NCBI GenBank assembly: GCA_034780895.1
Contig: JAUZTB010000001.1
Coordinates: 98,962,559 to 99,026,558, forward strand
Reading direction: 5' to 3'
DNA: 64,000 bases
Origin: Rhynchobatus australiae
Lineage: Eukaryota
Each line of letters starts with the position of its first letter. Positions within the stretch are counted from its first letter, which is position 1. Below are positions 2,457-49,409 of this stretch, one piece after another. The position numbers and the translations under genes were made by a program. The notes beneath the pieces were generated by a model. That model made no database searches. It was not told the DNA's origin and saw only the letters and a program-made list of their open reading frames with translations.

Positions 2457-2530
2457 GAAAAGGAAGCAGTGGAAGGAGTTTCAGTTGGTGCCATTCTTTC
2501 TGACTACCAGCGGGTCAGAGTAGAAAATGT
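2457..2530 (+). CDS. DPH6: DPH6 coding exon (homolog of human exon 4), EKEAVEGVSVGAILSDYQRVRVENV
   Basis: Polypyrimidine tract + ttgtag acceptor (AG 2455-2456); 74 bp; donor gtaagc at 2531. Translation carries the GAILSDYQRxRVE motif of diphthine-ammonia ligase. Phase 0 to 2. Confidence 0.96.
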
Positions 2531-8926: not shown

Positions 8927-9045
8927 GTGCAAGCGACTTAATCTCCAGCCTTTGGCTTACCTCTGGCGTCGAAACCAGGAAGATTTGCTGAGAGAAATGA
9001 TATTGTCTAATGTTCAAGCCATGATAATCAAAGTCGCAGCTTTTG
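8927..9045 (+). CDS. DPH6: DPH6 coding exon (human exon 5 homolog), (V)CKRLNLQPLAYLWRRNQEDLLREMILSNVQAMIIKVAAF(G)
   Basis: ttttacttcacag-type acceptor (AG 8925-8926), donor gtaggt at 9046; 119 bp; phase 2 to 1 joins the previous exon in frame; near-identical to the DPH6 LAYLW...IIKVAA segment as I recall it. Confidence 0.96.
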
Positions 9046-23870: not shown

Positions 23871-25499
23871 GCTTGATCAAAAAAAAAACTTGTTCCCCAG
23901 TTGATTAAAAGTTCTGCTAACGCATTAAAAGAGGTGCATTTCTTCATCCATGTCTGCCTTTGCTGAGAGGTGGCTCCAGAGGTATGAATCACTTGGCTGG
24001 GGAATCCAGTGAGACGTGGGGCTTGAAATGTTTCAGCTGTGAGACAAATTGCCAACAATTTGAGCTGATGATTGCACAAATTTGAGAGTTCTTTGGGAAG
24101 GCAATGAGATCTATTGCTTGCTAGAGAACCAAAATTGGCAGAGAACAGAATCAGTTACCTCCCCTAAATTTTAATACATTATGTATGAAGAATTATATCA
24201 CTTGCTCATAAATGTAATAGCCACAGTTCCTTTATAAGAAATTAAAGAAAACTGCTATTCTATATATACACTTCAAAGTAAATTATATTCTTCTAAATAT
24301 GGGAAATTTCTTACAATTATTGTGAATCATGAAAATAGTAGCAAAATTGACTAATTAAACAATGTTGGTGAGAGTACACGTTAATGCACTTTCTTTGTAG
24401 GGGTGCCCTTGAAAAATTGAGATTTCCCAGAAGTCCACCAAAAATACTGCAACAATCCTGAGAATCCTATCAAAATTGATGGTGCTCTCAGTCCAAAATT
24501 TTGACAATTTTTATGGATTTCTTGCCATCCCCCCNNNNNNNCCGTTCAGTCCCAAAGAACCAGCATCCCAGAATTAAAACTAACAGTACAATGTCTGTGA
24601 GGCTTTGCTCCTCACAGTTTCTAAGGATGGCAGCTCACTGACAGGAGATCAGTGCTGTGTTTAGACTAGAGTAGTAACAATGAAATTTTCATGCTTTGGA
24701 GACTGGAACTATGGGCAAAATACCCGGTTTTACAGTGAGTTTGAATTGGTGAATTTATGGTTGTCGCAGAAGAAGCATGTTGCACAGCCGTGAAATATTT
24801 TTATTTAAATGTGATGTTTCTTTTGAATATTTATAATAATATGCAAAATTGTCTGTTGAGAAAAGTGTATTGAAGAGAAGAATGAAAAGAAAGCCTGATT
24901 CATGATCCATTCTTTGGAATTGTTCACCCCGGAGAGCTGTAGAGTCATTATATCCACTCAAGGCTGAGATTGTCTGATATTTGGTCTATAGGGGAGGTGG
25001 GGATTATGGGGAACAGGTAGGAAAATGCATTTCAGTCCCATTTAAATGATCAGCTGTGACCTTATTGAATGGCAGAGCTGGCTTAGATAGCCGTTTTTTC
25101 TACTTCTGCTCCTATTTCATTTGTTCTTATGCTGTCTTTTTCTTTAAAATTTGGCAGTGCTTTTCATCACTTGTTAATAAGTGCTTTTTTGTTAACTCTT
25201 GTCAGATGATATCCTAAATTCACCTTGTACTTTTACCATTAACAAAATCTGTTTTATTGCTTGTTTTAGCATTGTTTATGTGAATTAGAGTTATTTGCCT
25301 GTTGATGCTGGTGGTGATTGTTGGTGATCAAGGCTGTGACATTTTGTTTCACTGTATTAATTCTTAATTTCCTCTTGCTGTTGTCTTTCATTAATAGTTG
25401 ATTTTGCTTTACAGGGGTGGGGGGGGGTTGGATATTTTGAAACACATTTAAAAATGGCTTTCAAAAAACATCCCATTAAAGCATGCTTTTAATTGGCAG

Positions 25500-25561
25500 G
25501 TCTTGATCCAGAGAAGCATCTTGGGAAAACCTTGGATCAGATAGAACCACATCTCAATCAG
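25500..25561 (+). CDS. DPH6: DPH6 coding exon (human exon 6 homolog), (G)LDPEKHLGKTLDQIEPHLNQ
   Basis: ttggcag acceptor, donor gtaaat at 25562; 62 bp; phase 1 to 0; GLDPxKHLGKTL motif. Confidence 0.95.
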
Positions 25562-26844
25562 GTAAATTGACTTCCAAACATTGGGAGAAAAGGGAGATGA
25601 TAAATAGTTCTCCAGTTCATGCAGCCAAACTGCTTCCAACTGTGAAAACTTGCCTTTGTAAATGGTTTGAATGAAATAAAAATTCTATATGAATCTCTTG
25701 CAGTCAAGTCAACTCGCCTGAGTTCATCTGAAAGTATGTCTCTGTCTGCAGAACATACAAGTGACAGCTAACCACCATGAATTACAATCTCAAGGCAGCC
25801 TGCCAAATGCTGACTTTTTGTCTTAAATGTTCCTCCTTATTCAAGGCATTGGAAAGCTGGAATAAAAGCCGATGTCTTAGAAATGTTTTAAACTAAAATC
25901 TGACTTCTTAAATGAATCTCGGATGGGATTTCACTTTGGCTTCCAAAGAATATTTGCTTTTTATTGAGTCTTAATATCAAATCGTTAAAACCCCTTTTTT
26001 GACATTTTGAAATAAGTGGCTGTGAATTAAGAAGTCTGATGACCTACCTTTGGTACAGTGTCCTCAATCCTTGAAAGTCTTAATGCATTAATCTATAATT
26101 TACTTCATTCACTCCCTGTTGTGGACTGATGGAGATTATCAAGTTTTGGGAGAAGGATTTTCTAGTTTTTTTGTGTGTCATAAAAGCCTACATGGCAGTC
26201 TGTCTCTGTCATAAAGAACTGGAGGTCTGGCATAGAGCCATAGCTCTTGAATTACATGGAATCAAGTGGTTTATAGCAGATTACAGGAACAAAGTCTCTG
26301 AAAGTGTTTTCTCCCTCTGTTTCCCCTGCATTATTCATTGACTCGACTCAGGTGTATTTATGAATTTACAATCAAGGAGTAAGAGAATGTGACCTGTGAA
26401 GTTAGGAACTTAACTTTCCCTGGCCATGGAAGATCTAAATTTTCTGTGACTGTTAGTAAAGTTAAATCATCCAGTCGTAGTTGTTCAGTAACCCCTGTAT
26501 CTTAACCCATGGCAGGGAGCTTTGGGGTTATTATTTTAAGTATCAGAACTGAAAAACAAAGCACACGGCATTTCAAAAAAATTATCATGTCTGCAGAGAT
26601 TACTGGTCTGCTGGATGACGTGGAGCTGCCAGATTCCCTGTAGGAATATGAATCTGGGTTACGTACCATGGTTTAGTGACGCCACCATCTTTTTAATAAG
26701 GAAAATGTATATTACTACAAAAAGTCTTTGTGTCACACTTTAAACTTGTGCGGAGGAAGAGAATGAGTTGATCCAAAAGGTTTCATTCTTAGATCTGCTG
26801 CCCCTTAGTGATATTTTCTGTAAAGAGGCAATCCACTGCCATTT

Positions 26845-27085
26845 CCAATGTCCCAGCACAGCTTTCTTCCACTTTGGAGAATAGTGTTTAAAGACCAAGA
26901 TCTCAAATCCAGCACCAAGCACATGGACTATCAGGCACATGGACTATCAGGCACTGGCCCTCATTGCATTAAGGACATGGATAACTTGCAGCAGCATTTC
27001 AAGGCATTGGATACCACAGCACTTCAGAAAATCTTCCAAATCATTGGAAGGATAGATGGACTATTCCCAATATCCCCAGCAGCAA
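26845..27085 (+). mobile_element. RTE-like LINE fragment with internal 16-bp tandem duplication
   Basis: RIVFKDQDLKSSTK...LQKIFQI resembles the RTE VFxDxDLxxxTK...LRKILxI region; gcacatggactatcag occurs twice (26919-26950). Confidence 0.55.
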
Positions 27086-28414
27086 GGCTCTGAACACATC
27101 AAAGTCCTCATCCTTTTCTATAATTCTTTCTGACCTCTCTCTTCCTTAATTCATAATTTCCTCGAGTCATTTTAGCCTTTTCTGTACCCTCTGTTCATAT
27201 AAGTTTGTGTTTACTGCTCCCTCTCCCCTCATATCATTGACAGTATTCCCACTCTAATGCTATTTTCCAGGAATAGTTCTAAAATTTGACCTTTTTAAGC
27301 ACTAAAGGCAAACAATGGAAGCCTGAACTGGAAATGGTGTTGAAAATGAAGTTTTAGCATTGGGTAAGAGAGAAGTACAGATAGAATGGGAACAAAAAGC
27401 ATTCAAACTCTTATTGGAATTTCAAGTGAATGATGGGAAAATGTAAGATTTACAAAGAAAGGGAACCAGTAATCTTCACCTTTTACACACAGCTTCCTAA
27501 CTTGCCAAAGTAAAAGATACTTAATTCCATTTGTGCAAACAATAGTGATTGTTCCAAGGAAATTTCAAAACTTTGTTTTTGGTTTCCGGAGGACTAGTTT
27601 CCATGGAAGTCAGTTATATATTTGGTACACCTTCAGTTAATTACTCTTTTTAAATAACATAAATTGTCTTCCAAAGGAAAAAGCATTATCTTTCCAAAAT
27701 GCAACAAGGGAGCTTGCAACTAATCCTTCCTACTTCAAGTTGATAGCTTGCTGCTGAATCAAAAAGCTTGGGATTGATGGAAGATGTGTCTTCAAAGCCA
27801 CCTTCCATATGGCTTGTTTATAACAATAANNNNNNNNNNNNNNNNNNNNNNNNNNNNNNNNNTGCTGTTTGTGGTTTTCCTGTGATTTTTTTTTACTATT
27901 TTAGTAGTCTGATTGATTTTGGGTTTAAACCCTGCTCAGTTAGAGTACATGCTGAAGCCATCTCATCTTTGCAGGCTTCTGTTCAAGATAACCCAGTGGC
28001 TGTACATTCTATGCTGTCATATTTTATGAGGGGAATCTAGAAGATTAGACCAGATGATAGAGAATTTTGATAACAAAGACATGTTTAATGTTGAAGTCGT
28101 ATTCTTTAAAATATTCACAATTAATAGCATTTTTGAAGACTGCATGTGGTGAAAAGTGTTTTATTATGCTGTGATGCCATTGATGTGCGTTGCTTCTTGC
28201 ATTAAAAAAAATCTTTGTGCTGTATATAAAAAAAAAGTAAAGGAAAAACATGCTGATCATCAAAATTAACGTAGTACCAGTTTTAAATGTGTATTTTGAA
28301 GGGGAGTAGAAATGAAAGTCCCATCAAGGCAGAACAAAGCACAAGTGATATCATTGCACTGTTTTCCTGTAGTGTGAAGCTTTAACTCACAAATAAATGT
28401 GTCTGTTACTGCAG

Positions 28415-28509
28415 ATTTCTCAGAAGTACGGGGTGCATGTGTGTGGAGAAGGTTGAGAGTATGAAACCTTTACTTTGGATTGTCCTTTATTCAGGAAGCG
28501 AATTGTTGT
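28415..28509 (+). CDS. DPH6: DPH6 coding exon (human exon 7 homolog), ISQKYGVHVCGEG*EYETFTLDCPLFRKRIV(V), with an in-frame TGA at 28454-28456
   Basis: ctgcag acceptor (AG 28413-28414), donor gtgagt at 28510; 95 bp; phase 0 to 2. Codons read GGA GAA GGT TGA GAG TAT GAA ACC where the family motif is GEGGEYET. Confidence 0.95.
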
Positions 28510-30499
28510 GTGAGTTATTGTTTCCTCAATTAAAAATCCATCTGAATATATCTGTGCATTTTTAAATACTGGCAAAGTGCTGCTTGGAACAGCTATACTC
28601 ATTGACTGATTTGTGTCTGTTTTGAGAGCTGTTTTGTCAGGAATTTATACTTCATGATAATGGAAGATGGCAATGACACAAAAATTAAAATCTATTTTTA
28701 TTTTTGCTATGTTTGCAAATGAACTTGTAGAATTTTTATCCATAACTGTGCAGTAACGATATATCACTGGGATTTTAATTTTGTAATTTTAACAGAAAAT
28801 GTACATTTATTAAATTCTTTTTTGTGCAACATCTTAAAATGCATTCATTTTATTCTATCTTGAAATAATCACGCTTTTGGCAGAGCATTATTTTGCTGTC
28901 CTAGCATATATATTCACTGTCAATAAAAGCCATTTTGATTGGTGGTGTTATTAGTAATTGTGAAGATGCATATTAAGTCAATTTTGACAATTCCTAGAAG
29001 CACACTACCTGATGAACAGGGAAACGAAAGCACAACCTCATACCAGCAGATTGCCAAAGACCCCAGTGGCCTATAAAAGAGACAAATTCATTTCTTAAAA
29101 AATATAAAAGTTGTAGAACTAAGGAAGCAATTTTGAATACAAAAGAACATCAGAGAGGATCTTAATGAAAATGTCCTGTCTGAACTAGTGTTAAATAAAA
29201 AAAGACTATTCATTGATGGAGTCTAGCCCTGCTAATTGGTTTTTGTTCAAAATCATAATGATTTTCAAGGTTAAACTATTAATAGAAATGAATGCTTGCA
29301 TGACTGTAACTATCTTGCACTGGCTTGTGCATTGTCTTCAAAAACTCAAGTTACAAGCTCATTAAACTTCGTATCACATTCTGATGGCCATTGGATAATG
29401 GGATGATTAGCCACAGGGAATGATTAGGACAGTTGTCATTGCTCCATTAAGGAAAATTAGATAAATGTTGAAAGGAGAGAAATAAATGAGACAACTGAGA
29501 GAGAGAAAAAAAAACACCATTAAAGTTAGTTTTGGATTGGATTAACAAAGTTTTGGCATTGACATTATGAATGATCTCCTCTACACAAAAACTGCTTTGG
29601 TTCTAAATCCAAATGCCAACTCTGAGGTTTTTGCACAATTCCTTCATCATATTTAAAATTGCAATGGCCTGTTGAAATTTGGCACAGTTTACTTGTACAA
29701 TTTAACTTTAATCCAGAAAGCATCCTTTTTGAACATTCTGAGAGAAAGTATGCCTCCATTTAATATTCTGTTCACAATGGCTTTACTTTTCAGGCAAAAC
29801 TTTTTATATGTTCTTTTGCTCATTTGTTTTTTTATAAGTTTCTGATACCACTTAGCCTCTTGTAGAAATGTGAATTAAATCTGATTCCCACCCACTGTTG
29901 TGGAGCTACTCCTTCCTTTCCCTGTTCATTGCTTCCTCCAATAGTCATTGTCTATCCTAGTCAGTGGTCAAAACATTTCTTTTAGCAGGTCTCCCTGTTC
30001 TGTTTGTGACCATAGCCTGTCTCATCTTCCTTCTGCTTAAAGATAAAGCTCCTGACTCTTTTCAATCTTGGCCGGTTGCCAGCACACCATCAGTTGGTTT
30101 GGCAACCTTGAGCTCTTTGTGGCTGTGGTTCTTGGTTGTTCCTCCACTGTTTCTCTTCTGTTTTTGTTTGTAAGAATTTTTTTCTGCAAAATACTTTGCA
30201 ACCATTCCAACAACTTGTATCTCCCCATAACTCTATTGGCCAGAGGTGCAATAAGGCAAACTCAATACAAAGCCAAGTAACATCAGTGTCCAAAAGTTTA
30301 ATCAAGATTGCAAGTTTTAAGGAGGGCTTTAGAGAAGGGTTAAAGAGATTAAGGCTAAGGCAGCTGAAGGCACTACTGACAACAGCAAGGAAAAGCAATG
30401 GTGGCAAACCTCATCAATGACCCTCCCTTCATTCATATGGCCATAAGTAGGGGTTTATTGAAAGCAGTGTTCAGCTCCAAGTATAAATCTTTATCTAAA

Positions 30500-30848
30500 G
30501 AAGGTAAGGTAAGGTTTCTTTATTAGTCACATGTACATCAAAACACACAGTGAAATGCATCTTTTGTGTCGAGTGTTCTGCAGGCAGCCTGCAAGTGTCG
30601 CCACACTCCCGGCGCCAACATAGTATGCCCACAACTTCCTAACCTGTACGTCTTTGGAATATGGGAGGANNNNNNNNNNNNNNNNNNNNNNNNNNNNNNN
30701 NNNNNNNNNNNNNNNNNNNNNNNNNNNNNNNNNNNNNNNNNNNNNNNNNNNNNNNNNNNNNNNNNNNNNCCTTACAGACAGCAGTTGGAATTGAACCGGG
30801 GTCACTCGCATTGTAATAGCGTTACACAAACCACTACACTGCCGTGCC
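30500..30848 (-). mobile_element. tRNA-derived V-SINE (elasmobranch type)
   Basis: gtctttggaatatgggagga...cttacagacagc...ggaattgaaccggggtc (B-box on minus strand); short tandem aaggt tail. Confidence 0.75.
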
Positions 30849-32255
30849 TGCAGAATCCAATGCAGGATTGGTGTCTCAATCAGAAGCAGTGTTGCCCAGG
30901 CACTTGCTCCCAGGCTTTGCTAATGAGTGGCAAATCATGGAACCACCTCTACAATTATACAGGAACATCAGGATTCTAATCGACTTCCCAAATGTTTATT
31001 GTAGTTTTTATTTTGATATAAAATTAGACACCCTGGATTCCATTTCATCCTCTTCTTCTCAAATAGCATGTTGTATTCCTTCTGGTAAATTCTAATCTGT
31101 ATTGCAGATGTGAAATAAAATCAGAAAATGCTGAAGTTATTTATTTGGTCAAGGAGACACAACTTAACATTTCACAGTGCTGACCATTCATCAGAAATCC
31201 TCATCATTACATTATGTAATTATTCTACACTAAATGTATGCTAAGAACATTAAAGGAATTAAAAAAAAATCACTGTTTTAAGTGCAAGTAATTATCTCAT
31301 AACAACAAAAGAGGTGGCTACTCATCCTATCGTGTCAATGCCAGCTCCCCACAGAGCAATCCCATCCATCCCATTAACCCCTCCTTATTTCCCTGTAGCC
31401 CTGCAACTTATTCACGCACATAGGAATGTAGGTGGCTGTATGGAGGCCACCAGTTCGTCTGTTTGTTTGCATGATCTCTGCGGGCATTATGTCTGATAAA
31501 CTGAGGCCAGAGTTTCTAAGCCAGAGGAGGTGGCATTCCAACAGAAATCCTATCTTTTCAAACCTATAACAAGAATGAAAAGGAAAACTAGAAGCAATAA
31601 ATATGCATAACATGGAGAAATTACAGAATGGTGAGGGAAAAGCCAACTTAAAAGCAACCAGATAGAAAATGGGGCTAGTAGCTGTTTATAATGGGAGTTC
31701 TTTGATGTAGCTCATATTGATTGTAATGAAAGGCAAGTCATAAGGGCTAAAGAATGTGGAATCTGGAATGGGACAGAAAGCAGAGGCAAATGAATAAAAT
31801 GTTGAAATCATTTTTAAAAAGGCAGTAAATTGCACCTTTTTCCCATTACTGTCAGACTTAATTGTGTCTTTCACTAAATGGACAGCTTAATTGGAGTGAT
31901 AGAAAATCTTGATGCAAACAGTGCCTCTTGCCTTTGTTCAGATGGAGATGTGCTTTATAAAAGAAGAGAAAATGAACCGGTGTTACTTAGACTGAATGCA
32001 TTCTGAACTATTTTACAAAATGTGGTATTTACGAAAAACTCTGCAAGATTTTTGTAATTCATGTAACCAAAGACAGAACTTAGTGGATTCAGAATGTTTG
32101 GAACATTTGCACAACAGTTTGCTTAACGGGCAATGCATTTGATCAATAATCACCATAAAGTATTAGTTTGACATGATACACAGCTTGTGTTGTCAATGTA
32201 ATGTTTTCTGGTGATTCTGTTGGCATGCTTACAATTATGTTCTTATTTTAAACAG

Positions 32256-32349
32256 TGATTCTTCAGATGTTGTTATTCATTCTGCTGATGCGTTTGCACC
32301 TGTGGGCTACCTTCGTTTATTGAACTTGCATCTGGAGGATAAACCCCTT
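32256..32349 (+). CDS. DPH6: DPH6 coding exon (human exon 8 homolog), (V)DSSDVVIHSADAFAPVGYLRLLNLHLEDKPL
   Basis: ttttaaacag acceptor, donor gtaagt at 32350; 94 bp; phase 2 to 0; VIHSADAFAPV.YL motif. Confidence 0.95.
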
Positions 32350-35300
32350 GTAAGTATCAGGATGTTACTTTCATGAAGTAGAATTCATGTACCTATGCCA
32401 AAATGTGACATACTTAATGCAAAGGTGACTGGTATATTTGGATTGAAAATATTTCTAAATATAAGCTGAGTTTGGATTGGTAAAGCCGCAATTACTTTTG
32501 ATATATTGCAGAAACTCTGCACTAGTGTATAGAACTAACTTGGCAGAATGTGGGATCATTTGTTTCATAAATTAATTGAGTGAATACAGTGTAGTACAGA
32601 GTTATAATTCTTAAGTAATGCACAGATGCTGAAATTTGAATTAGGATAAATTAACCTTTTTGCTTTGTGTTGTAGAAGAATGCCATATTTCAATTGACCA
32701 AGCTAGATGTGCAAGATCACAGTTCTGTTCTGTCACTTTGTGAAATGTATGGCACAGCAGTAACCTCTCAATTTAGAGACCAAGTCCAGAGTAATTATCT
32801 TACTTGTTGTCAGAATCTTTCATTTGGTTGGAGCTCTGTATACTTACAAAGATCCTTTATATGTCCATTAAACAATGCTTGTTCCACCAGTTTTCAAACC
32901 TTAAAGCAGTTTCATCGATACACTGTAACACCATGTTAGAAAAAAATTCTTGATATAGTTGTGCACCAACCACAGTTGCTTATGTGGTGGATGGTTCAAC
33001 TCCCATTGAAGAAACTTGAGCATGAAATCTAGGCTGACATTCCTGTGTAGTACTTGAGAAGACCTATACCATTTCAGCTCACTTCGAATTTTGCCAGATA
33101 GTCTCATAGGAAATTAAGTTAAGGCAAAGGGTTAATGACAAAAGGAGCAATTTATAGCAGCGACAACATGATTCTGAAAGTTTGTCCAAATATCAACTTT
33201 ATATACCATATTCACTTTAAATAATTTTTTCATCCCTGGGATTTTGGATCTTAACTTATCAAATATTCCAGAATGTTATATTGGAAACAAAAATTAATGA
33301 TTGTAGAAGTTTACTATTTTAATGAAGGTTTCAAAGCTTGATCAGATGAATCATCATGGGNNNNNNNNNNNNNNNNNNNNNNNNNNNNNNNNNNNNNNNN
33401 NNNNNNNNNNNNNNNNNNNNNNNNNNNNNNNNNNNNNNNNNNNNNNNNNNNNNNNNNNNNNNNNNNNNNNNNNNNNNNNNNNNNNNNNNNNNGTAACCAG
33501 TGAATTGTTCTATATGGATTTTTTTAGTCATGTTAAAGTTGCCTTATGTTATAATCTTTACACTTTTGAAAACTTTAGCTGCTGCTATTAATTAATTGTG
33601 TATGAGAGCAGAGGCTATTGATTCCACTCACCTGCATGTTGGATTCCACTGAGGTCATTTAAACTGAATCTTTGAGTTTTGTCAAGTACACGTTAAGCAC
33701 AAGCAATCAAAGACAAATTTCCTGCTTTCTTTGTAACAGCCTTGTTTTTCAGTAGAGTCAAAGTTACCACTCTTGGCTATATCAAAGTATGTTTAATGCA
33801 AATTTTTAAGTAAGTATGCCCTATACTATACAGAGCTACACAAGTTCATTGAATATCTGGTCATATGCAAATAAATTTGATCAGAAATGAGCAAATGAAA
33901 CGCTTCTTAAAACTAGCTCAAGTTTGAATGTGGTTTGTACCCAGATCAGTGCTGGTGTTCAAAGCAGAAACTCTTGAACTAATAATGTACTGTGAGTAGT
34001 CCAATTGTTTACAGGGATGTGGTCCAGCAATTGAATTTGAAAAGATTTTGTTGAAGTATAGTGAACATACAACTTGAAGTCCTGGGAGATTCAGAACTGA
34101 ATGTTGAAAATTGTGAATCACAAAAGCAGCTGTGATTGTAGATAGTACTTATGAATACTGTTCCAATGTAATGGAATTTCCACTCTCCTTGTTTTGGACT
34201 TTATTACATATTGTATCACATTTATACATTTGTAGCATTCTTTGCCAGACCATAAGTTAGCCAGTTTTATTTTGATGTAAGTTAAGATGGGGCTGAGTCT
34301 GCAGTTGGCAGCCAGCATTTCATGGATAGATTGAGGATTTGATTTTTTTTTGTAAGGAGATGCTCTATTTTCATATTTTTTATGCTAACTAAACTGGAAC
34401 TTGATCAAAAAACATTTTCCATTATTGGGGCAAAGATGATTGAGGGNNNNNNNNNNNNNNNNNNNNNNNNNNNNNNNNNNNNNNNNNNNNNNNNNNNNNN
34501 NNNNNNNNNNNNNNNNNNNNNNNNNNNNNNNNNNNNNNNNNNNNNNGCCACCAATCTTTGTGTCATCTGCTAATACTAACCCACCAATCCACATTTTCAT
34601 CCAAGTCATTTCTATATATCACAAACAGCAGACGTCCCAGTATGGATCCCTGCAAAACACCACTAGTCAGGGATCTCCAGCCAGAATAAGACCCATTGAC
34701 CACTACCCTCTGTCTTCTATGGGCAAGCCAATTCTGAATCGAAACAGCCAAGTCACCGTGGATCCCATGCATCTTAATCTTCCGGATGAGACCCCATCAG
34801 GGACCTTGTCAAATGCCTTAATAAAATCCATGTAAATAACATCTACTGCTCCACCCTCATCTATCACCTTCGTCACCTCCTCAAAAAATTCAATCAAGTT
34901 AGCAAGACATGACCTGCCCCACACAAAGCCATGCTGACTGTCCCTAATTAGGCCATGCTTTTCCAAACACTCATAAATCCTATCCCTGAGATTCCTCTCC
35001 AGTAACTTCCACTGACATGAGACTCACTGACATGAGACTCACTAGTCTGTAATTCCCAGGATTATCCCTATTTCCCTTATTGAACAATGGAATAACATCA
35101 GCTACTTGTTAATCCTCCAGGACCTCGCCTGAGGCTAGAGAGGACACAGAGATCTTGGTCAAGGCCCCAGCAATCTCAGCTCTTGCCTCTCTCATTAACT
35201 AGGGGTATATCCCATCAGTCCCTGGGGACTTATACACCTTAACATTCTTCAGGAGACCCAACACCACCTTTCTTTATCTCAAAATGCCCTAGCATATTAA

Positions 35301-35422
35301 CATGCTTCACACTGATCTCGCTATCCTCCATGTCATTCTCCTTTGGTGAATACTGATGCAGAGTACTTATTTTGGACCTCGCCCACACCCTCTGTCTCCA
35401 AGCACATGTTTCCTCCTTTATC

Positions 35423-35657
35423 AACAAACAAACTGCTGGAGGAACTCAGCAGATCGAGCAGCATCTATGGGAGGAAAGGAACCGTCAGTGTTTTAGGTTG
35501 AAACCCTGCATCAGGAACTGATCATGGGCCCTGATGCAGGGTTTTGACCCGAAATATCGACAATTCCTTTCCTTCCACAGATGCTGCGCGACTTGCTAAG
35601 TTCCTCCAGCAGATTGTTTGTTGCTCCTTATTCCAGCATCTGCAGTCTCTTGTGTAC
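35423..35657. mobile_element. Inverted-repeat Penelope-derived element with 11-bp target-site duplication
   Basis: Inverted arms of about 90 bp (35423-35514 / 35530-35623); direct repeat cctcctttatc at 35412-35422 and 35658-35668. Confidence 0.8.
35527..35562 (+). ncRNA. Variant minimal hammerhead-like motif
   Basis: CUGAUGC-A-GGGU(UUUG)ACCC-GAAA-UAUC-GAC; first box deviates from CUGAUGA. Confidence 0.4.
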
Positions 35658-37231
35658 CCTCCTTTATCCTTGAGTGGTCCTACCCTACCCCAAGTTATCC
35701 TCTTGCTCTTGATGCATGTATACAATATCCTGGGGTCACATAAATCACATTGTTTGCTGGAATTTGCTGGACTCCAGCATAATGGATTATTAACTCCAAA
35801 TGCATGAAACTTCCCAGGGAAAGATAACCAAAGCATTCATGTCTGGGAGCAACACTCTTTGGCCGAAGTGGCAATACACAATCCATCTTTTTGCTTCTGT
35901 GAACTTCACCAGTTGTAATGAGGTCCAGTTACACTAAACAGTGACTAATTCCAATCAAGGCTTTGTAAGTCAATCAGTTAGAAGCCTGGTTGTAATTGGT
36001 GACACCCTTAAGTTGATGTCATTCCTGCTGCGACACACTGGTCATGCAGTGTGAGTTGAACACATGGTGTTATCTCCATCATCAAGGTACCAAGGTTTAA
36101 TCCCAAATTATTAACCTCAACTACTGTGGCAGCAAAAACCTGCATGGCATCACTGGTCTTGGAGGAGTTCCTGCTTCTGATTGCTATCTGGTGACACCAT
36201 TAGAAAAGTCCATATGTGAGAAACCAATGTGTGAATATGATTGATTTTAGTGGTCTTACTCCCACAGTAAAGTAGCATTCTTACCTTTATATTATAGTTT
36301 ACACAGGAAGATTCACTAAAAACAGGAGAAGAAACACTGGGTGGGAGTGGGAGGGTAAAAGAATTAGAATCTGGATAAAAAGTTCAGACCAGTCCATTTG
36401 ATATATTATGGCAAATCCTGTTTTGGGATACAACTTGATTATTTAAAAAAGTCCTTTTCCCTCCTCACTCTCTCATCTCACACCCAGCTAAACCAGAAAC
36501 TAAAATTAGACCTTCCAATTCACTTGTGAGTGGCTTGGCTTCATCAGTATTTTCTGTATTCAGCATCAGTAATACAAATGGTATTTTACATAAATAGTAA
36601 AACAGCATCTTGATATATTACACATATGTCACAACACATTTAGCTAACTAAGGATTTCCTTATCATTGTGCAAAAGTTAAAAATTTATGAAGAAGCATGA
36701 TATTGTGGTATTTATGGTAGGTAACAATTATAGCTAATGCATCTATTTCAAAATGTTTGGGGCACAATATATTGAGTCAAAATGGCTGCAAATTCCAGAT
36801 TTGATACCAGATTTAAAACCATAAGTTCAATTTGGAACCCCNNNNNNNNNNACCCCCCTACCAGGCAGAATCCAAGTAGGAGGGCAGTCTTTCTTCTAGT
36901 TTCATGTAGAATGAGTGCCCCACAAGAAAACATTGGGCCTCCTTCACGCTCCCCTGGTGGGTTTCTCCTCCGAACATTTAATTGGGTGATTGATGTGCAT
37001 CCCCAGTGGTGACCTCCTGCTGCTTAGTTTTAACATTGCAGCAACCATTTCCTGCAGATTTCTGAAGACTGTAAGTGGCCTGTTAGTCTTGCCCTGCCAT
37101 TCCCATCAGCCATGTCCACTTGCTGCCACTTTGGGAAGGCCACAGAAGTGGCTATGCTGTAATAGAGCCAAGTGCAGTTACATATTTTACATGAAGAGGA
37201 AATTAATTTTTAACTGACTTTTTTTTTAAAG

Positions 37232-37379
37232 CATATACCTTCTAGCATAGCACTTGGTGCTCAGCAGCCTTGTTCATCCTGCTTCAATCAGGAGACTAGC
37301 ACAAAAAATGATGATTACAGAGAGCTATCAAAACCACAGGTCACCTGGGATCTCACCTCAAGTAATCCTTCTGACTCTG
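37232..37379 (+). CDS. DPH6: Probable DPH6 linker exon (long isoform), HIPSSIALGAQQPCSSCFNQETSTKNDDYRELSKPQVTWDLTSSNPSDS
   Basis: Branch-like ctgac, T-tract and aag acceptor (AG 37230-37231); donor G|gtaagt. 148 bp open in phase 0 and ending in phase 1, exactly bridging the flanking exons. Low sequence conservation, so the call rests on splice signals and phase. Confidence 0.75.
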
Positions 37380-37509
37380 GTAAGTTCATGACCGAAAAGT
37401 AGTCATGTACCTTAACTAATAATGGACAATCAATGAAAAATGCGCTTAAATGACAACTTACTGTATTTATAAAAATAGCTTTGATTCACTGAAGATTCTA
37501 GAAGCTTAC

Positions 37510-38760
37510 TGCTGTGAAGGAGCCTGTGCTGCCTCTTTGATAGAACTGTCTAAATCTATTTTATATACCAACTTTTCCTTCATAACTCTGCGAACTAATT
37601 CTCTTCAAATATGTCCATTTGCTGTCAGCAAGTTCCTAGAGAATTATAAGTAATGTATTCCTGGCTTTAACATCTCACTAATATCCTAATTTCCTGTCTA
37701 GTTCTTTGGCCAATTGTATTAGATTTGTGACTTTGGGTTGCCAATTCACTTGCCAGAGAAAATGGTTTCTCATATGTATTAGAAAGAAACTTTTGCAAGT
37801 TTAAGGTTCTCAATTAGGTCTCTTCTAAACTCTGTCTACTCAGAGGTGATCAATTGCAGTTTGTCCAATACATCCTCATAACTGAAGAACATTATTAGTG
37901 TTGCAGCACAGGAAGAGGCCTTTTGATCCATTGTACATTTGCTGGTTCTTCGAAAAATCTATGCATTTACCTCCTCCCCTGTTCTTATCCCAGTAATAAT
38001 TTTCTTCTTAAATGCTTATCCTTTTAGAAAATTGCCATTGAATTTCCTTCCAGTTCCCTTTCAGGTTGTGCTTCAGATCACAATGACCCACTGATAAAAA
38101 GGAAGCTTCCTATGTCACCTTTGGTTCCTTCAGCAGTCATTTTAAATCTGTGTCATTTAGTTCTGAACCTTCTGTCACTGCAATCAATTTCTCCTTATTT
38201 ATCCTGTCAAGGTATTTTATAATGATTCAACATAAATCTCTTCCTGTTGTCCTCCGTGCCTCTGTTTTAAAAAAGGCAAGCCTCTGTTTATAATGCCTTT
38301 ATAACAGCCTTCTCAAGTTGTTTTGCAGCTTTCAGAGTTAGGTACCCTCAGCCCCCAGGTTTGTTCCTGCACTCTCTTTAAAATTCTAGCATATACTTAA
38401 TATTGCCTCTCATTTGTCCTGCAAACTGTATCCCTGGTGTCATCCTTGAAAACCTCATCTGTAACTCTCTAGGGGGTTTCTCCAACCAGCCTAAAGTGCA
38501 GGATCTCAAAATTTTACATGATACTACAGCTGATGTATAACCAGCCCCTTGCAGCATGTTAACATTACATGCTTGGTTTTGTGTTCATTGCTTTGATTTA
38601 CAAAGCCAGGTGCCTTATGCATTTTTTAACTGTCGTCTCAACTTGCCATACCATCTTCAAAGATCTGTGAATACGCATCACTGGGTCCCTGTGCTCTTGT
38701 AGCCCCTTCAAAATAATACTGTTTAGATTCTCCTGTATCTCTGTAAAAATTCTTCCCAAA
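37510..38760 (-). mobile_element. Old, highly decayed CR1-like LINE fragments
   Basis: Repeated remnants such as tttaaatctgtg...ttag and caacttgcc..accatcttcaaagatctgtg that parallel minus-strand CR1 copies. Confidence 0.45.
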
Positions 38761-38847
38761 GCAAATTACTTATTAAAAGAAAGTATGGCAGTAAAGACGT
38801 CTTGCTGAGATTGTGCAGGGCTTTGGAGACAGCTTTTTAAGCAGTAA

Positions 38848-39170
38848 TGAGTGCATTGGTGGTACAGCAATTCCATTGCCAGACTATTGAACCAGAGGTA
38901 ACAATACAGAAACCAGAATTCAAAATTTCACCATGGCATTTGTGGAATTTAAATTTTCATTTTGGGATACAAAAATACTTGTGCTTAGCAATGGTGACCA
39001 AGCACTACCAGATTGTCATAAAAACCCATCAGGAGATGGAAATTGCCATCCTTACTTGGTCTTGCCTTTATGTGACTTCAGACCAAGCAGTGTGGTTGAC
39101 TTTTCAGTACCCTCTGAAATAGCTTAGCAAACCATTCTAATGCCAAGGGCAGTTAGTGATGGCCAATAAT
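38848..39170 (+). mobile_element. Elasmobranch tRNA-derived SINE nested in a decayed CR1 (about 38780-39600)
   Basis: caccatggca..tgtggaatttaaatt, aatggtgacca, aaaaacccatc, gccatccttac.tggtc, tgtggttgact, aagggcagttag resemble a common shark SINE as I recall it; CR1 coding remnants flank both sides. Confidence 0.6.
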
Positions 39171-39694
39171 ATTTTTTTAAAAATCTATCTCTCCATCTAA
39201 AGAAGGATAAGCTTATCTTGGATCTGGTACAGAAATGCTAAGTTGATTCCAGGGATGCTGAGAGAAATTGAATAATACTAGCCGCTATTGACTGAACTTT
39301 AAAAGAACAAGAGAGGTATCGTTGGAGTGAATGAAATTTGAAATGGATTGACAAGGGAGGTACTGGGACTATTTCCTCTGCTTGTGAAATGTAGAACTTT
39401 TGTCTCAGGATAAATTGGCCTTTAGGACTGAGATGTGGCAAATCTTATCTACTCGGACAGCTAGAAATCTTTGAAATTCTCGGTCCTAAACTCAGTAGAT
39501 TCAAGACTGATTCGACAGCTTTTTTGGGCACTAAAGGAATTGAGGTATATGGAAATTGAAAAGAGAGGATTACCTTCTCCTGCTATTTTTTTAATATTAA
39601 GTTTTCAAGATTTTGAAGGAAATAAGTAGAATGGATCAAGAGAAACCACTTGCACTAGTTGGAGAATCTAGCACTAGGAATATAGCCTAAAAAT

Positions 39695-40225
39695 TAGAGT
39701 TAAAAACAGAAAAGGCTAGAAGCGCTCTGCAGGTTAGGCAGCAGCTGTGGAAAGAGAAGCAGTTTACATTTCCAGTCAAAGACCTTTCAGAACTGAGAAA
39801 CTGAGAAGACAAGTTAGTTTTAGCTTGCAGGACATGTGCAAGGTAGATTGGATGAGGGGAATACCTCTGAACCGGTGAGGTGGGTTTGACTGATGATACC
39901 AATGTTTGATTTATATGGTTAATAGATTAAACAAACAAATGGGCATGTTCAAGTTGTGAAATGCAGATCAAAGCAGTTGGTGAGAACTGAAATCAAAAGG
40001 AGAAGGCTGGAACTGCCCAGCAGATTAGACTTTCAGTGGGGAGAGCAAAACTAAATTAACATTCCAAATGGATAACCATGCAACAGAACTGTCCAGTTCT
40101 AACACAAACAGGAAAAATGAGTTACCTGAAGTTGTTGAATTTGATATGTGTCATAAGTGCTGTACTGTGCCTTGGTGGTAAGTGAGGTACTGTTCCTCAA
40201 GCTTATGTTAGCCTTTGTTGGACTT
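39695..40225 (-). mobile_element. Penelope-like element 3' region with GIY-YIG C-terminal remnant
   Basis: Two terminus copies (about 39700 and 39990). Minus strand 40160-40204 translates KLEEQYLTYHQGTVQ, similar to the Penelope endonuclease end KLEEQHLIFRLGTLQP. Confidence 0.6.
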
Positions 40226-41712
40226 TCAAATACTGTCTAAAGATTGGAGCTACTTTGCTCAGGAGAGAAGTTATGAAATATTTTTACATGCTCTATGTGG
40301 TAAAATTTTTTATCCTTGTTCAAGAATCAGCAGTTTTTATGGCATCATTTGTTAATTTTAGATCTGAGATTGATAAATGTTTCATATTTAAATGTGTAAA
40401 GGAATATGGGGTAAAGGTGAAATATGAAAGACCACAGATCAACTATAATGTCATTGAATAGGGAAGCAGGTTTTAGGGGCTAAATAATTAAATAATCTAT
40501 TCCTGTGACCTTGTATGGGAGTCAGACATTGCAGGTGAAGATTTTTGCAACTGCAGCCATTAAAGGAGCAACACGGTTTTGTTAGGATGGGGCTGGGAAA
40601 ATTAGTTGACCATATGCCTGTTGAGTAAAAGTGGAAGCTATCAAACATCTTTTCAAAATAACTACAGTACTGTTGTCGGCAGAAATTGGTGACTGGCTTT
40701 GTCCCAGTTAAATTTCAAACTCAGAATTTAGACTTTTAACTTGGAAGAATATCCCAGTGATAGGGAAAGCATTAATTGTCAAAATTATATATACACTCTT
40801 CCTTTGACGTTCTCTTCCGAATTACAGTGGTTTATATTTGAGGTCTGACAGATAATTAGGAATGCATTCATAACAAAGACATATATCAAGGCTTTTAAAC
40901 ATGCAAAGTTCTTAAACCATTGAGGAATAAATTGTATAAATAGGAATAAGTAACAGTGCAATTAGAGATTTGAAGCTGTCATTGTGTTANNNNNNNNNNN
41001 NNNNNNNNNNNNNNNNNNNNNNNNNNNNNGTGGGTGTCACTGGTGATGTGGTTCTAGGAAGACCTACATTTGGTTCCTGGTAGATGTCAAGTTATTTGAT
41101 CTCAGAGCGATAACAGTGGGTGTCCAATTATTCAAGTCAGTTTGCAAAACAGGGAAAACAGCAGTCAGAATTCCTGGCAATTGCTTGCTGCAAAGTGAGT
41201 AAACACAGACATTGGACTAGTGCAGGATGAAACTCAGCTGTTAACCTTTACGCTTGTAAAGATAGTTCCTTTATGATTTTATATTTTAACTGAAAAGTTA
41301 CAATCATCTGTTTTTATTACAATACAAATGTTCAAAAATTATTAGAATAATGCATTGCAACCAACAGGATTATAGACATCAATTTGGAAAATGCCACTGC
41401 CCTCAATATCAGAACAACAATATTGTGCTAAGATCAAAAGTACCATTATCTGCAAAACAAAACTTATAGCCAATTTTCCCCAAAGTAATGTTGTCCATGA
41501 GATAGTATATTGTACACAAGTAAAATCACATTTCCGTTTGTGCTGAAATGGTACAACCCAAAATGTCAGATAAGGGGATATTTTCTGATGAGCTATCTTA
41601 GTGCAAGTACATCTTTGCAACAAAATAAAAATCAACTAACAGTAAAACCAGCAAATCCCCCTTCAGTAACCTCATTGCACGTCTCCAATTAATTTTGCAG
41701 AATGGTCAGATT

Positions 41713-41735
41713 TGTGTGTGTGTGTGTGTGTGTGT
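41713..41735. repeat. (TG)11 microsatellite
   Basis: Direct reading. Confidence 0.95.
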
Positions 41736-41858
41736 AAGCTGTTGGAGGTTGTTCAACTGCGAGATGAGGTCTTGTGACATCCAAGATAATTTTCAATGAA
41801 ATCACTGTCCTCCCTGCATTCATTCTCTGGAATGAATTTATGATTTATTTTCTTTCAG

Positions 41859-41981
41859 TAAAGTTAAATCATTGGTCTGCGAAAACAAAAAAAGGCTACC
41901 AGTGGATTAGTGGGCCACTCTTTCCCATGGAAGGGAAAAGCATTAATGATGCATCAAGGCAGATATTTTCATTGTTACAAG
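41859..41981 (+). CDS. DPH6: DPH6 long-isoform exon, (V)KLNHWSAKTKKGYQWISGPLFPMEGKSINDASRQIFSLLQ, start of the first RidA-like domain
   Basis: ttttctttcag acceptor, donor G|gtagtt; 123 bp, phase 1 to 1; the GYQWIxG...EGKS...A...FSxLQ pattern resembles long vertebrate DPH6 isoforms. Confidence 0.85.
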
Positions 41982-42590
41982 GTAGTTCCTTTATGATTTT
42001 ATATTTTAACTTTGAAAAGTTATAATAATCTGTTTTTATTGCAAATGTTCAAAAATTATTAGAATAATGCATTGCAACTAACAGGATTATGGGCTTAGAT
42101 TTGGAAAATGCCACTGCCGTCAACACCAGAGCAACAATNNNNNNNNNNNNNNNNNNNNNNNNNNNNNNNNNNNNNNNNNNNNNNNNNNNNNNNNNNNNNN
42201 NNNNNNNNNNNNNNNNNNNNNNNNNNNNNNNNNNNNNNNNNNNNNNNNNNNNNNNNNNNNNNNNNNNNNNNNNNNNNNNNNNNNNNNNNNNNNNNNNNNN
42301 NNNNNNNNNNNNNNNNNNNNNNNNNNNNNNNNNNNNNNNNNNNNNNNNNNNNNNNNNNNNNNNNNNNNNNNNNNNNNNNNNNNNNNNNNNNNNNNNNNNN
42401 NNNNNNNNNNNNNNNNNNNNNNNNNNNNNNNNNNNNNNNNNNNNNNNNNNNNNNNNNNNNNNNNNNNNNNNNNNNNNNNNNNNNNNNNNNNNNNNNNNNN
42501 NNNNNNNNNNNNNNNNNNNNNNNNNNNNNNNNNNNNNNNNNNNNNNNNNNNNNNNNNNNNNNNNNNNNNNNNNNNNNNNNNNNNNNNNNN

Positions 42591-42719
42591 GGAATTGGAA
42601 ATGAAAGATTACACGCTATCAGATATTATTCTGCTTCATCTGTACATAAAGGACATAAGGGACTTTGGCACCATAAACTCAGTGTATCAATCCTACTTCA
42701 ACCTCAACCCACCTGCAAG
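42591..42719 (+). CDS. DPH6: DPH6 long-isoform exon (5' edge hidden in N gap), ELEMKDYTLSDIILLHLYIKDIRDFGTINSVYQSYFNLNPPA(R), RidA/YjgF core
   Basis: Open frame from the gap edge (GAA at 42592); RidA-like motif LxDxxxxxLYxxDxxDFxxINxVYxxxFxxxPPAR; donor AG|gtaatg; phase 2 matches the next exon. Confidence 0.9.
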
Positions 42720-49234: not shown

Positions 49235-49409
49235 GGTTTGTGTGGAAGTCCCATTACCTGATGGAGTATTGCTTCAAGTTGATTGCCTTGTTCACAAAAA
49301 TGAGTCACTTTGCCAGGATACAACGAAACAGCAAAAGGAGGTTATGCATGTTCAGAGTATTTCACATTGGGCACCTGCTAACATAGGACCTTACAGTCAA
49401 TCAGTCAAG
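49235..49409 (+). CDS. DPH6: DPH6 long-isoform exon, (R)VCVEVPLPDGVLLQVDCLVHKNESLCQDTTKQQKEVMHVQSISHWAPANIGPYSQSVK
   Basis: tgtttttctag acceptor, donor gtaagc at 49410; 175 bp; phase 2 to 0. MHVQSISHWAPANIGPYSQ is the Dph6 hallmark start of the second RidA-like domain. Confidence 0.95.

What the first reader, a model, noticed from the sequence alone, without database searches (positions are those of the whole stretch)
28454..28456. In-frame TGA replaces a conserved glycine in the GEGGEYET motif of an otherwise intact DPH6
Seen: exon 28415-28509 reads ...GTG TGT GGA GAA GGT TGA GAG TAT GAA ACC..., one G>T change from a GGA Gly codon. The other eight exons are open with canonical splice sites and matching phases, including five downstream of the stop. 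The exon is 95 bp, so skipping it would frameshift. Known: GEGGE(Y/F)ET is a conserved catalytic-domain motif of Dph6, which performs the last step of diphthamide synthesis on eEF2; a stop here is upstream of many exon junctions and should trigger nonsense-mediated decay. Inference, in rough order of likelihood: consensus/base-call error in a gappy assembly (G>T is a common oxidative artefact), a heterozygous or recent loss-of-function allele, incipient gene loss, or UGA recoding. Recoding is least likely because the position is a Gly homolog and the 3' context (TGA GAG) is not the CUAG readthrough motif.
Basis: partly seen in the sequence, partly recalled or inferred. Interest (0 to 1): 0.8.

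Follow-up and report, generated by a model that had tools for sequence, protein, structure and literature searches.

The report
DPH6 stop codon, likely assembly error
A stop codon interrupts the only DPH6 gene found in this ray's genome assembly, but public sequence data from what is likely the same species, and from a relative, read the normal glycine codon there, so the stop is likely a one-letter assembly error (or a private allele) and not new biology.

Summary
The TGA at 28454-28456 is in the assembly. It is the only internal stop in a 15-exon, 692-codon DPH6 model, and one locus was found.

It is not a fixed trait. Of 6 public runs laid, 3 cover the site and all read G: X1 (organism A; no other difference in its 8 longest contigs, 8,122 b), X5 (a relative) and X14 (the relative's spliced transcript). 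All 99 of 120 listed homologues that have the motif carry Gly, as do 2 archaeal structures. No SECIS was found in 7.3 kb behind the gene; the same scan found one in 2 of 3 GPX loci. The exons behind the stop show no decay, and the DPH1/DPH2-family exons found are open.

Verdict: consensus error about 0.73, heterozygous null allele about 0.22, homozygous null or loss about 0.04, recoding about 0.01. Contigs drop alleles, so only raw reads can separate error from heterozygote. The scan has noted similar lone stops on other DNA, and none for this gene.

The parts
28454..28456 (+). In-frame TGA at codon 200 of the DPH6 model; the first base differs from the G read in public runs
   Evidence: G in X1, X5 and X1, X14
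28415..28509 (+). DPH6 coding exon 7 (95 nt, phase 0 in), carries the EGG(D/E)xE motif
   Evidence: spliced in X14 contig
2457..2530 (+). DPH6 exon 4 (74 nt), open, AG/GT
8927..9045 (+). DPH6 exon 5 (119 nt), open, AG/GT
25500..25561 (+). DPH6 exon 6 (62 nt), open, AG/GT
32256..32349 (+). DPH6 exon 8 (94 nt), open, AG/GT; end of the synthase domain
37232..37379 (+). DPH6 exon 9 (148 nt), open, AG/GT
41859..41981 (+). DPH6 exon 10 (123 nt), open, AG/GT
42590..42719 (+). DPH6 exon 11 (130 nt by phase); acceptor and first base read N
49235..49409 (+). DPH6 exon 12 (175 nt), open, AG/GT; RidA-like region. Exons 1-3 and 13-15 lie outside the window on G000:C1

Best explanation
The assembly carries a TGA at codon 200 of an otherwise intact DPH6 gene, and this T is likely a single-base consensus error, so the animal's real gene likely encodes Gly and a normal full-length diphthine-ammonia ligase. 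Shown: the stop in the assembly; G at that base in every run that covers it; an intact gene elsewhere. Inferred: how the T got in. Run X1 has a break in its contigs right beside the site (one contig ends at 28439, the next begins at 28437). If X1 is, or resembles, the data behind the assembly, coverage is thin there. A graph assembler would then cross the spot on a lone read carrying a miscalled or oxidatively damaged G>T, and clip the better-supported G path as a dead-end tip. This last step is untested and rests on recalled assembler behaviour.
For:: X1 (organism A, holds 0.89 of the index words) matches 28200-28800 with T>G at 28454 as its only difference; X5 (organism C) also reads G, with no other change in the exon; the 8 longest listed X1 contigs (8,122 b, summed) carry that one difference only, so other differences are below about 3.7e-4 per base. 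X3, another sample of organism A, shows 1 other letter in 8 listed pieces (about 2,645 b), so diversity is low and a heterozygous site is a priori rare. X14's 2,916-nt contig joins exons 7-8-9-10 and reads G. X1 lacks 7 of 61 index words: P(>=7) is 0.19 if the T-bearing words are absent and 2e-4 if they were present (assumes random word sampling); one internal stop in 692 codons; 0 of 48 differences from the sawfish protein P0012 in residues 201-248. The assembly is in 81,522 pieces. False premature stops are a described, if least frequent, class of assembly error (PMC9516821, passages).
Against: All runs laid are Logan contigs, which drop alleles and show presence only, so T in the raw reads is not excluded (tool text). 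X1's G lies 18 letters from its contig end, short of the tool's 31-letter bridging rule, in one contig of depth 6.75. X1 may be the assembly's own source, or another individual; I cannot tell. The assembly shows 0 other substitutions against X1 in 8.1 kb, so its error rate is low too. A contig break beside the site is also what halved allele depth at a heterozygous site would give. X1 contigs are short (mean 157 b over the whole run), so a contig end this near may be chance.
Confidence: 0.73

Rival explanations
1. The assembled animal is heterozygous for a real, rare nonsense allele, and the haploid consensus kept the T. The T transcript would be removed by nonsense-mediated decay, and the G allele would supply the enzyme.
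For: Contigs collapse alleles (tool text). The assembly is otherwise free of substitutions against X1 in 8,122 b. The X1 break beside the site fits split allele depth. Eight exon junctions lie behind the stop, the last 1,360 nt away, so the allele would likely be a recessive null that carriers tolerate.
Against: No T-bearing contig appears in any of 6 runs laid. The index share of X1 argues against T words in its contigs. Diversity in the region is below about 3.7e-4 per base. Only 17 of 270 possible single changes in the exon's other codons give a stop, and selection thins such alleles further (inference).
Confidence: 0.22
2. The assembled animal, or its population, is homozygous for the stop: a very recent DPH6 loss, with eEF2 left at the diphthine stage.
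For: The consensus has T, and no second DPH6 copy was found. A very recent loss leaves no decay signal.
Against: G exists in organism A (X1), so the stop is not fixed in the species if A is the window's species (inferred from identity). No faster change behind the stop: window-specific versus sawfish-specific changes are 7-10 versus 6-10 after it and 1-3 versus 3-4 before it over 6 outgroups, Fisher p 0.34-1.0 on the 4 tables tested (low power). DPH1/DPH2-family exons are open: 6 matches, and the one TGA lies in an intron. Mice lacking diphthamide modification are embryonic lethal (PMC7591051, passages; the passages do not name a Dph6 knockout).
Confidence: 0.04
3. UGA is recoded (selenocysteine or readthrough) and a full-length protein is made.
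For: Only that the stop is TGA and that the frame continues intact.
Against: The stop is not conserved: G in 3 of 3 covering runs; Gly in 99 of 99 motif-bearing homologues, including 20 of 20 named cartilaginous-fish entries from 15 species, and in archaeal 3rjz and 2d13. No SECIS in 7.3 kb behind the stop codon by pattern scan (0 hits) or Rfam; the controls found 2 of 3 GPX loci by pattern and 1 of 3, weakly (E 5.6), by Rfam. The base context is TGA-GAG, not the CUAG readthrough motif (motif recalled). Recoding would insert a residue other than Gly at a position that is Gly in every homologue checked.
Confidence: 0.01

Closest known systems
Long-form vertebrate DPH6 (diphthine-ammonia ligase; Pfam PF01902 plus PF01042 RidA-like domains), e.g. 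sawfish P0012
   Same: 15 exons, 692 codons; 28 differences from P0012 over 689 compared residues (7/199 before, 21/490 after the stop); domain layout from the Pfam scan of P0012.
   Different: Only the TGA at codon 200 in this assembly.
False gene losses from sequence errors in draft vertebrate assemblies, 'premature stop codon' class (Kim et al. 2022, PMC9516821; passages seen; author name recalled)
   Same: A lone in-frame stop in an intact gene, with flanks identical to better data.
   Different: Their criterion needs a read pile-up (fewer than 10 reads, or 80% of reads mismatching); I had contigs only.
Yeast Dph6 motif E215-G-G-(D/E)-X-E220 (PMC3585130 and PMC3709272, passages)
   Same: By motif alignment the stop falls on the G217 equivalent and removes the E220 equivalent; E220A and E220H inactivate the yeast enzyme. 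A product cut at residue 199 would be predicted dead.
   Different: No natural or recoded stop at this site was evident from the titles and abstract starts of two searches (DPH6 + selenocysteine, 10 listed; DPH6 + stop codon readthrough, 1 listed); I did not read those papers for this point.

Membership tests
DPH6 / diphthamide synthase (PF01902) | Homology to Diphthami_syn_2 above the curated cut-off | tested here: met
   Stop exon region scores 38.4 bits against a cut-off of 23.2; P0012, which differs from the model at 28 of 689 residues, scores 159 bits
DPH6 / diphthamide synthase (PF01902) | Intact EGG(D/E)xE catalytic motif | tested here: inconclusive
   Broken by TGA in the assembly; intact in X1, X5 and X14 contigs
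Assembly-error false stop | Data from the same species give the sense base with identical flanks | tested here: met
   X1: G, with no other difference in 601 b or in 8,122 b of listed contigs; species identity inferred from sequence identity
Assembly-error false stop | Raw reads of the assembled individual do not support the stop base | not testable with these tools
   All 17 runs listed are kept as contigs
Unitary pseudogene / gene loss | Further lesions or relaxed selection behind the stop | tested here: not met
   One internal stop, all phases matching, no rate excess; low power for a very recent loss
Unitary pseudogene / gene loss | Stop fixed in the species | tested here: not met
   G in organism A run X1
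Selenoprotein | SECIS element in the 3' UTR | tested here: not met
   0 hits in L007; controls 2 of 3 by pattern and 1 of 3 by Rfam
Selenoprotein | UGA aligned to Sec/Cys, or conserved as UGA, in relatives | tested here: not met
   Gly in 99 of 99 motif-bearing proteins; G in organism C DNA and RNA contigs
Programmed stop-codon readthrough | Conserved stop with readthrough context (UGA-CUAG, recalled) | tested here: not met
   Context TGA-GAG; stop not conserved
Programmed stop-codon readthrough | Full-length protein or ribosome footprints past the stop | not testable with these tools
   No proteomic or ribosome-profiling tool; no run on record as RNA was listed for organism A

The most novel reading that the evidence does not exclude
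The assembled ray is a living homozygote for a DPH6 null allele that segregates in a low-diversity species (X1 being another individual with G): a vertebrate viable without the last step of diphthamide synthesis.
Probability: 0.04. Interest if true: 0.6.

Novelty: not a real feature. Interest (0 to 1): 0.07.

Why it matters
Mostly as a caution: automatic annotation of this assembly would call DPH6 truncated or lost, and that call should be flagged. If the allele were real and heterozygous, it would be one recessive loss-of-function variant in a low-diversity ray, of modest interest for genetic load. Only a viable homozygote would be surprising, since diphthamide-deficient mice die as embryos (PMC7591051, passages).

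Tried and rejected
1. Second copy or retrocopy: DNA, Pfam and protein searches of G000 each found one locus (counts are lower bounds).
2. Splicing around the stop: skipping exon 7, 6+7 or 6+7+8 ends the frame early; 7+8 and 5+6+7 stay in frame but delete the motif. In-frame AG sites behind the stop (28458-59, 28497-98) would also cut away part or all of the motif. Rejected as rescue.
3. Allele state from contigs: X2, X3 and X16 do not cover 28454; such holes prove nothing. No RNA holder is listed for organism A and none is on record as RNA, which says nothing about expression. X14 and X16 are guessed to be RNA; X14's exon-to-exon joins fit a transcript.
4. X1 contig ends: I looked for a shared restriction-site pattern at 16 ends and saw none by eye.
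5. Genome-wide SECIS_1 search rang nowhere, controls included, so it is uninformative; I used three GPX loci as controls instead.
6. A protein search with the stop exon itself could not be run (31 aa, below the minimum), so homologues came from exon 5 (120 of 382 listed). Annotated protein sets are biased against stop-bearing alleles.
7. Tandem repeats near the site: none within 1.4 kb.
9. No supplements were read.

Full report
Observation. The window reads TGA at 28454-28456, in frame within a 95-nt exon at 28415-28509 that has an AG acceptor and a GT donor. The exon translates to the DPH6 stretch around GEGGEYET with the stop in place of the last Gly of GEGG. DNA, Pfam PF01902 and protein searches of the window's genome each give one locus (counts are lower bounds).

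Gene anatomy. A search with exon 5 gave 382 homologues, of which 120 were listed. The sawfish protein P0012 (692 aa) was the closest of the 12 I aligned, so the animal is likely a sawfish-like ray (inference). P0012 mapped nine exons in the window and the rest on the same scaffold over about 210 kb. The model has 15 exons, 2,079 nt and 692 codons. All phases match, and 27 of 28 internal splice sites are AG or GT; the acceptor and first base of exon 11 read N. The only internal stop is codon 200. Eight junctions lie behind it, the last 1,360 nt away, so a real allele would be expected to trigger nonsense-mediated decay (established knowledge, recalled). P0012 has a diphthamide synthase domain at 1-231 and two RidA-like stretches.

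What the stop would do. The yeast motif is E215-G-G-(D/E)-X-E220. G216N+E220A inactivates Dph6 (PMC3585130, passages), as do E220A and E220H (PMC3709272, passages). By motif alignment the stop sits on the G217 equivalent and removes the E220 equivalent, so a 199-residue product would be predicted dead. The same paper gives ENGE(F/Y)H for a divergent related group, which by my reading keeps this Gly. Of the 120 listed proteins, 99 have the motif and all 99 have Gly there; 21 lack the stretch (truncated or alternative isoforms) and were dropped from that count. All 20 named cartilaginous-fish entries, from 15 species, have it, as do the two archaeal structures aligned. Annotated sets are biased against stop-bearing alleles, so this shows constraint, not allele frequency.

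Public runs. Seventeen runs from 5 organisms and 7 studies hold part of 28200-28800; all are kept as contigs. I laid 6, and three cover the site. X1 (organism A, 0.89 of the index words) matches all 601 bases except T>G at 28454 (one contig, depth 6.75, 18 letters from its end). X5 (organism C; its two contigs fall in the 90-95% band) reads G and has no other change in the exon. X14 (organism C, guessed RNA) has a 2,916-nt contig of depth 13.3 that runs through exons 7, 8, 9 and 10 with contiguous record positions and reads G, 43 letters from the piece's end. These come from three studies. X2, X3 and X16 do not cover the base.

How close is X1? Over 24600-42100 its 8 longest listed contigs (of 55,322 records laid, mostly repeats) total 8,122 b and carry that single difference. 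X3, another sample of organism A, has 1 other letter in about 2,645 b of listed pieces at low depth. So organism A is likely the window's species, diversity is low, and G exists in it. X1 may be the assembly's own source, in which case it is not an independent individual but is the more direct evidence of error. X1 lacks 7 of 61 index words; that is expected if T-bearing words are absent (P 0.19) and unlikely if they were present (P 2e-4), assuming random sampling of words.

Error or heterozygote. Contigs drop alleles, so this is not settled. For error: low regional diversity (below about 3.7e-4 per base), the small share of changes that make stops (17 of 270 in this exon), no T contig in any run laid, and a G>T change of the kind that oxidative damage gives (recalled). 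X1's contigs break at 28437-28439 with a 3-letter overlap, and some of the missing words do not include the site, which points to thin local coverage. If the assembly was built from such data, one bridging read with a wrong base would be the only connected path, and the G path would be clipped as a tip. That is inference from recalled assembler behaviour. For heterozygote: the assembly shows no other substitution against X1, allele splitting also thins depth, and X1's contigs are short anyway (mean 157 b). I put error at 0.73 and heterozygote at 0.22; these are judgments, not computed values.

Gene loss. Residues 201-248 differ from P0012 at 0 of 48 positions. Lineage-specific changes are balanced before and after the stop over six outgroups (Fisher p 0.34-1.0 on four tables; low power). 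Six DPH1/DPH2-family matches on two other scaffolds are open, the single TGA lying just past a splice donor. Diphthamide-deficient mice are embryonic lethal (PMC7591051, passages; Dph6 itself is not named there). A homozygous null gets 0.04.

Recoding. Rfam gave no SECIS match in 7.7 kb around the last exon (6 unrelated matches, all below their gathering scores). A pattern scan gave 0 hits there and found elements in 2 of 3 GPX loci of the same genome; Rfam found 1 of 3, weakly. If X14's exons have the same lengths, its contig holds about 327 nt of 3' UTR (my arithmetic), near a poly(A)-like signal 356 nt behind the stop codon, so the scanned region likely covers the UTR. With the stop unconserved and the position Gly in every homologue checked, recoding gets 0.01. 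Two literature searches (listings only) showed no title or abstract start on DPH6 recoding.

Comparison and verdict. This is an ordinary long-form vertebrate DPH6 with one suspect base, matching the described 'premature stop codon' class of false gene losses in draft assemblies (PMC9516821, passages). Earlier scan notes describe similar lone stops in other genomes (not tested here), and none on this protein. Novelty: not a real feature, most likely. Interest 0.07.

Noticed in passing
P0071, P0072, P0074, P0078, P0083, P0110, P0111, P0115, P0116; window exons 28415-28509 and 32256-32349: Nine annotated turtle and emu DPH6 isoforms run from exon 6 straight to exon 9, an in-frame skip of about 63 residues that removes the catalytic motif but keeps the RidA-like domains. 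Two were checked by alignment. Whether they are functional or annotation noise is open.
   Followed up: partly
P0025, P0030, P0032, P0053: Marsupial DPH6 entries are long-form (about 700 aa, with PF01042), and a porpoise isoform (473 aa) aligns to sawfish residues 1-441, including RidA-like sequence. PMC3585130 (passage) calls the long form largely absent from mammals, so the shortening may be limited to placentals and incomplete there.
   Followed up: partly
window 42139-42590: An N run covers the acceptor and first base of DPH6 exon 11, so that splice site cannot be checked.
   Followed up: no
L016 (G000:C1:93265000-93273900) and L017 (G000:C107:8837000-8843100), minus strand: SECIS-like hairpins (9 of 9 helix pairs) behind two TGA-containing glutathione peroxidase genes; none was found in L015 by either method.
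   Followed up: partly
window about 30500-30670, 34570-35700 and 39200-39800: High-copy repeat fragments in DPH6 introns (summed contig depth in X1 from about 3,000 to 600,000 against 6-12 in unique bins); not classified.
   Followed up: no
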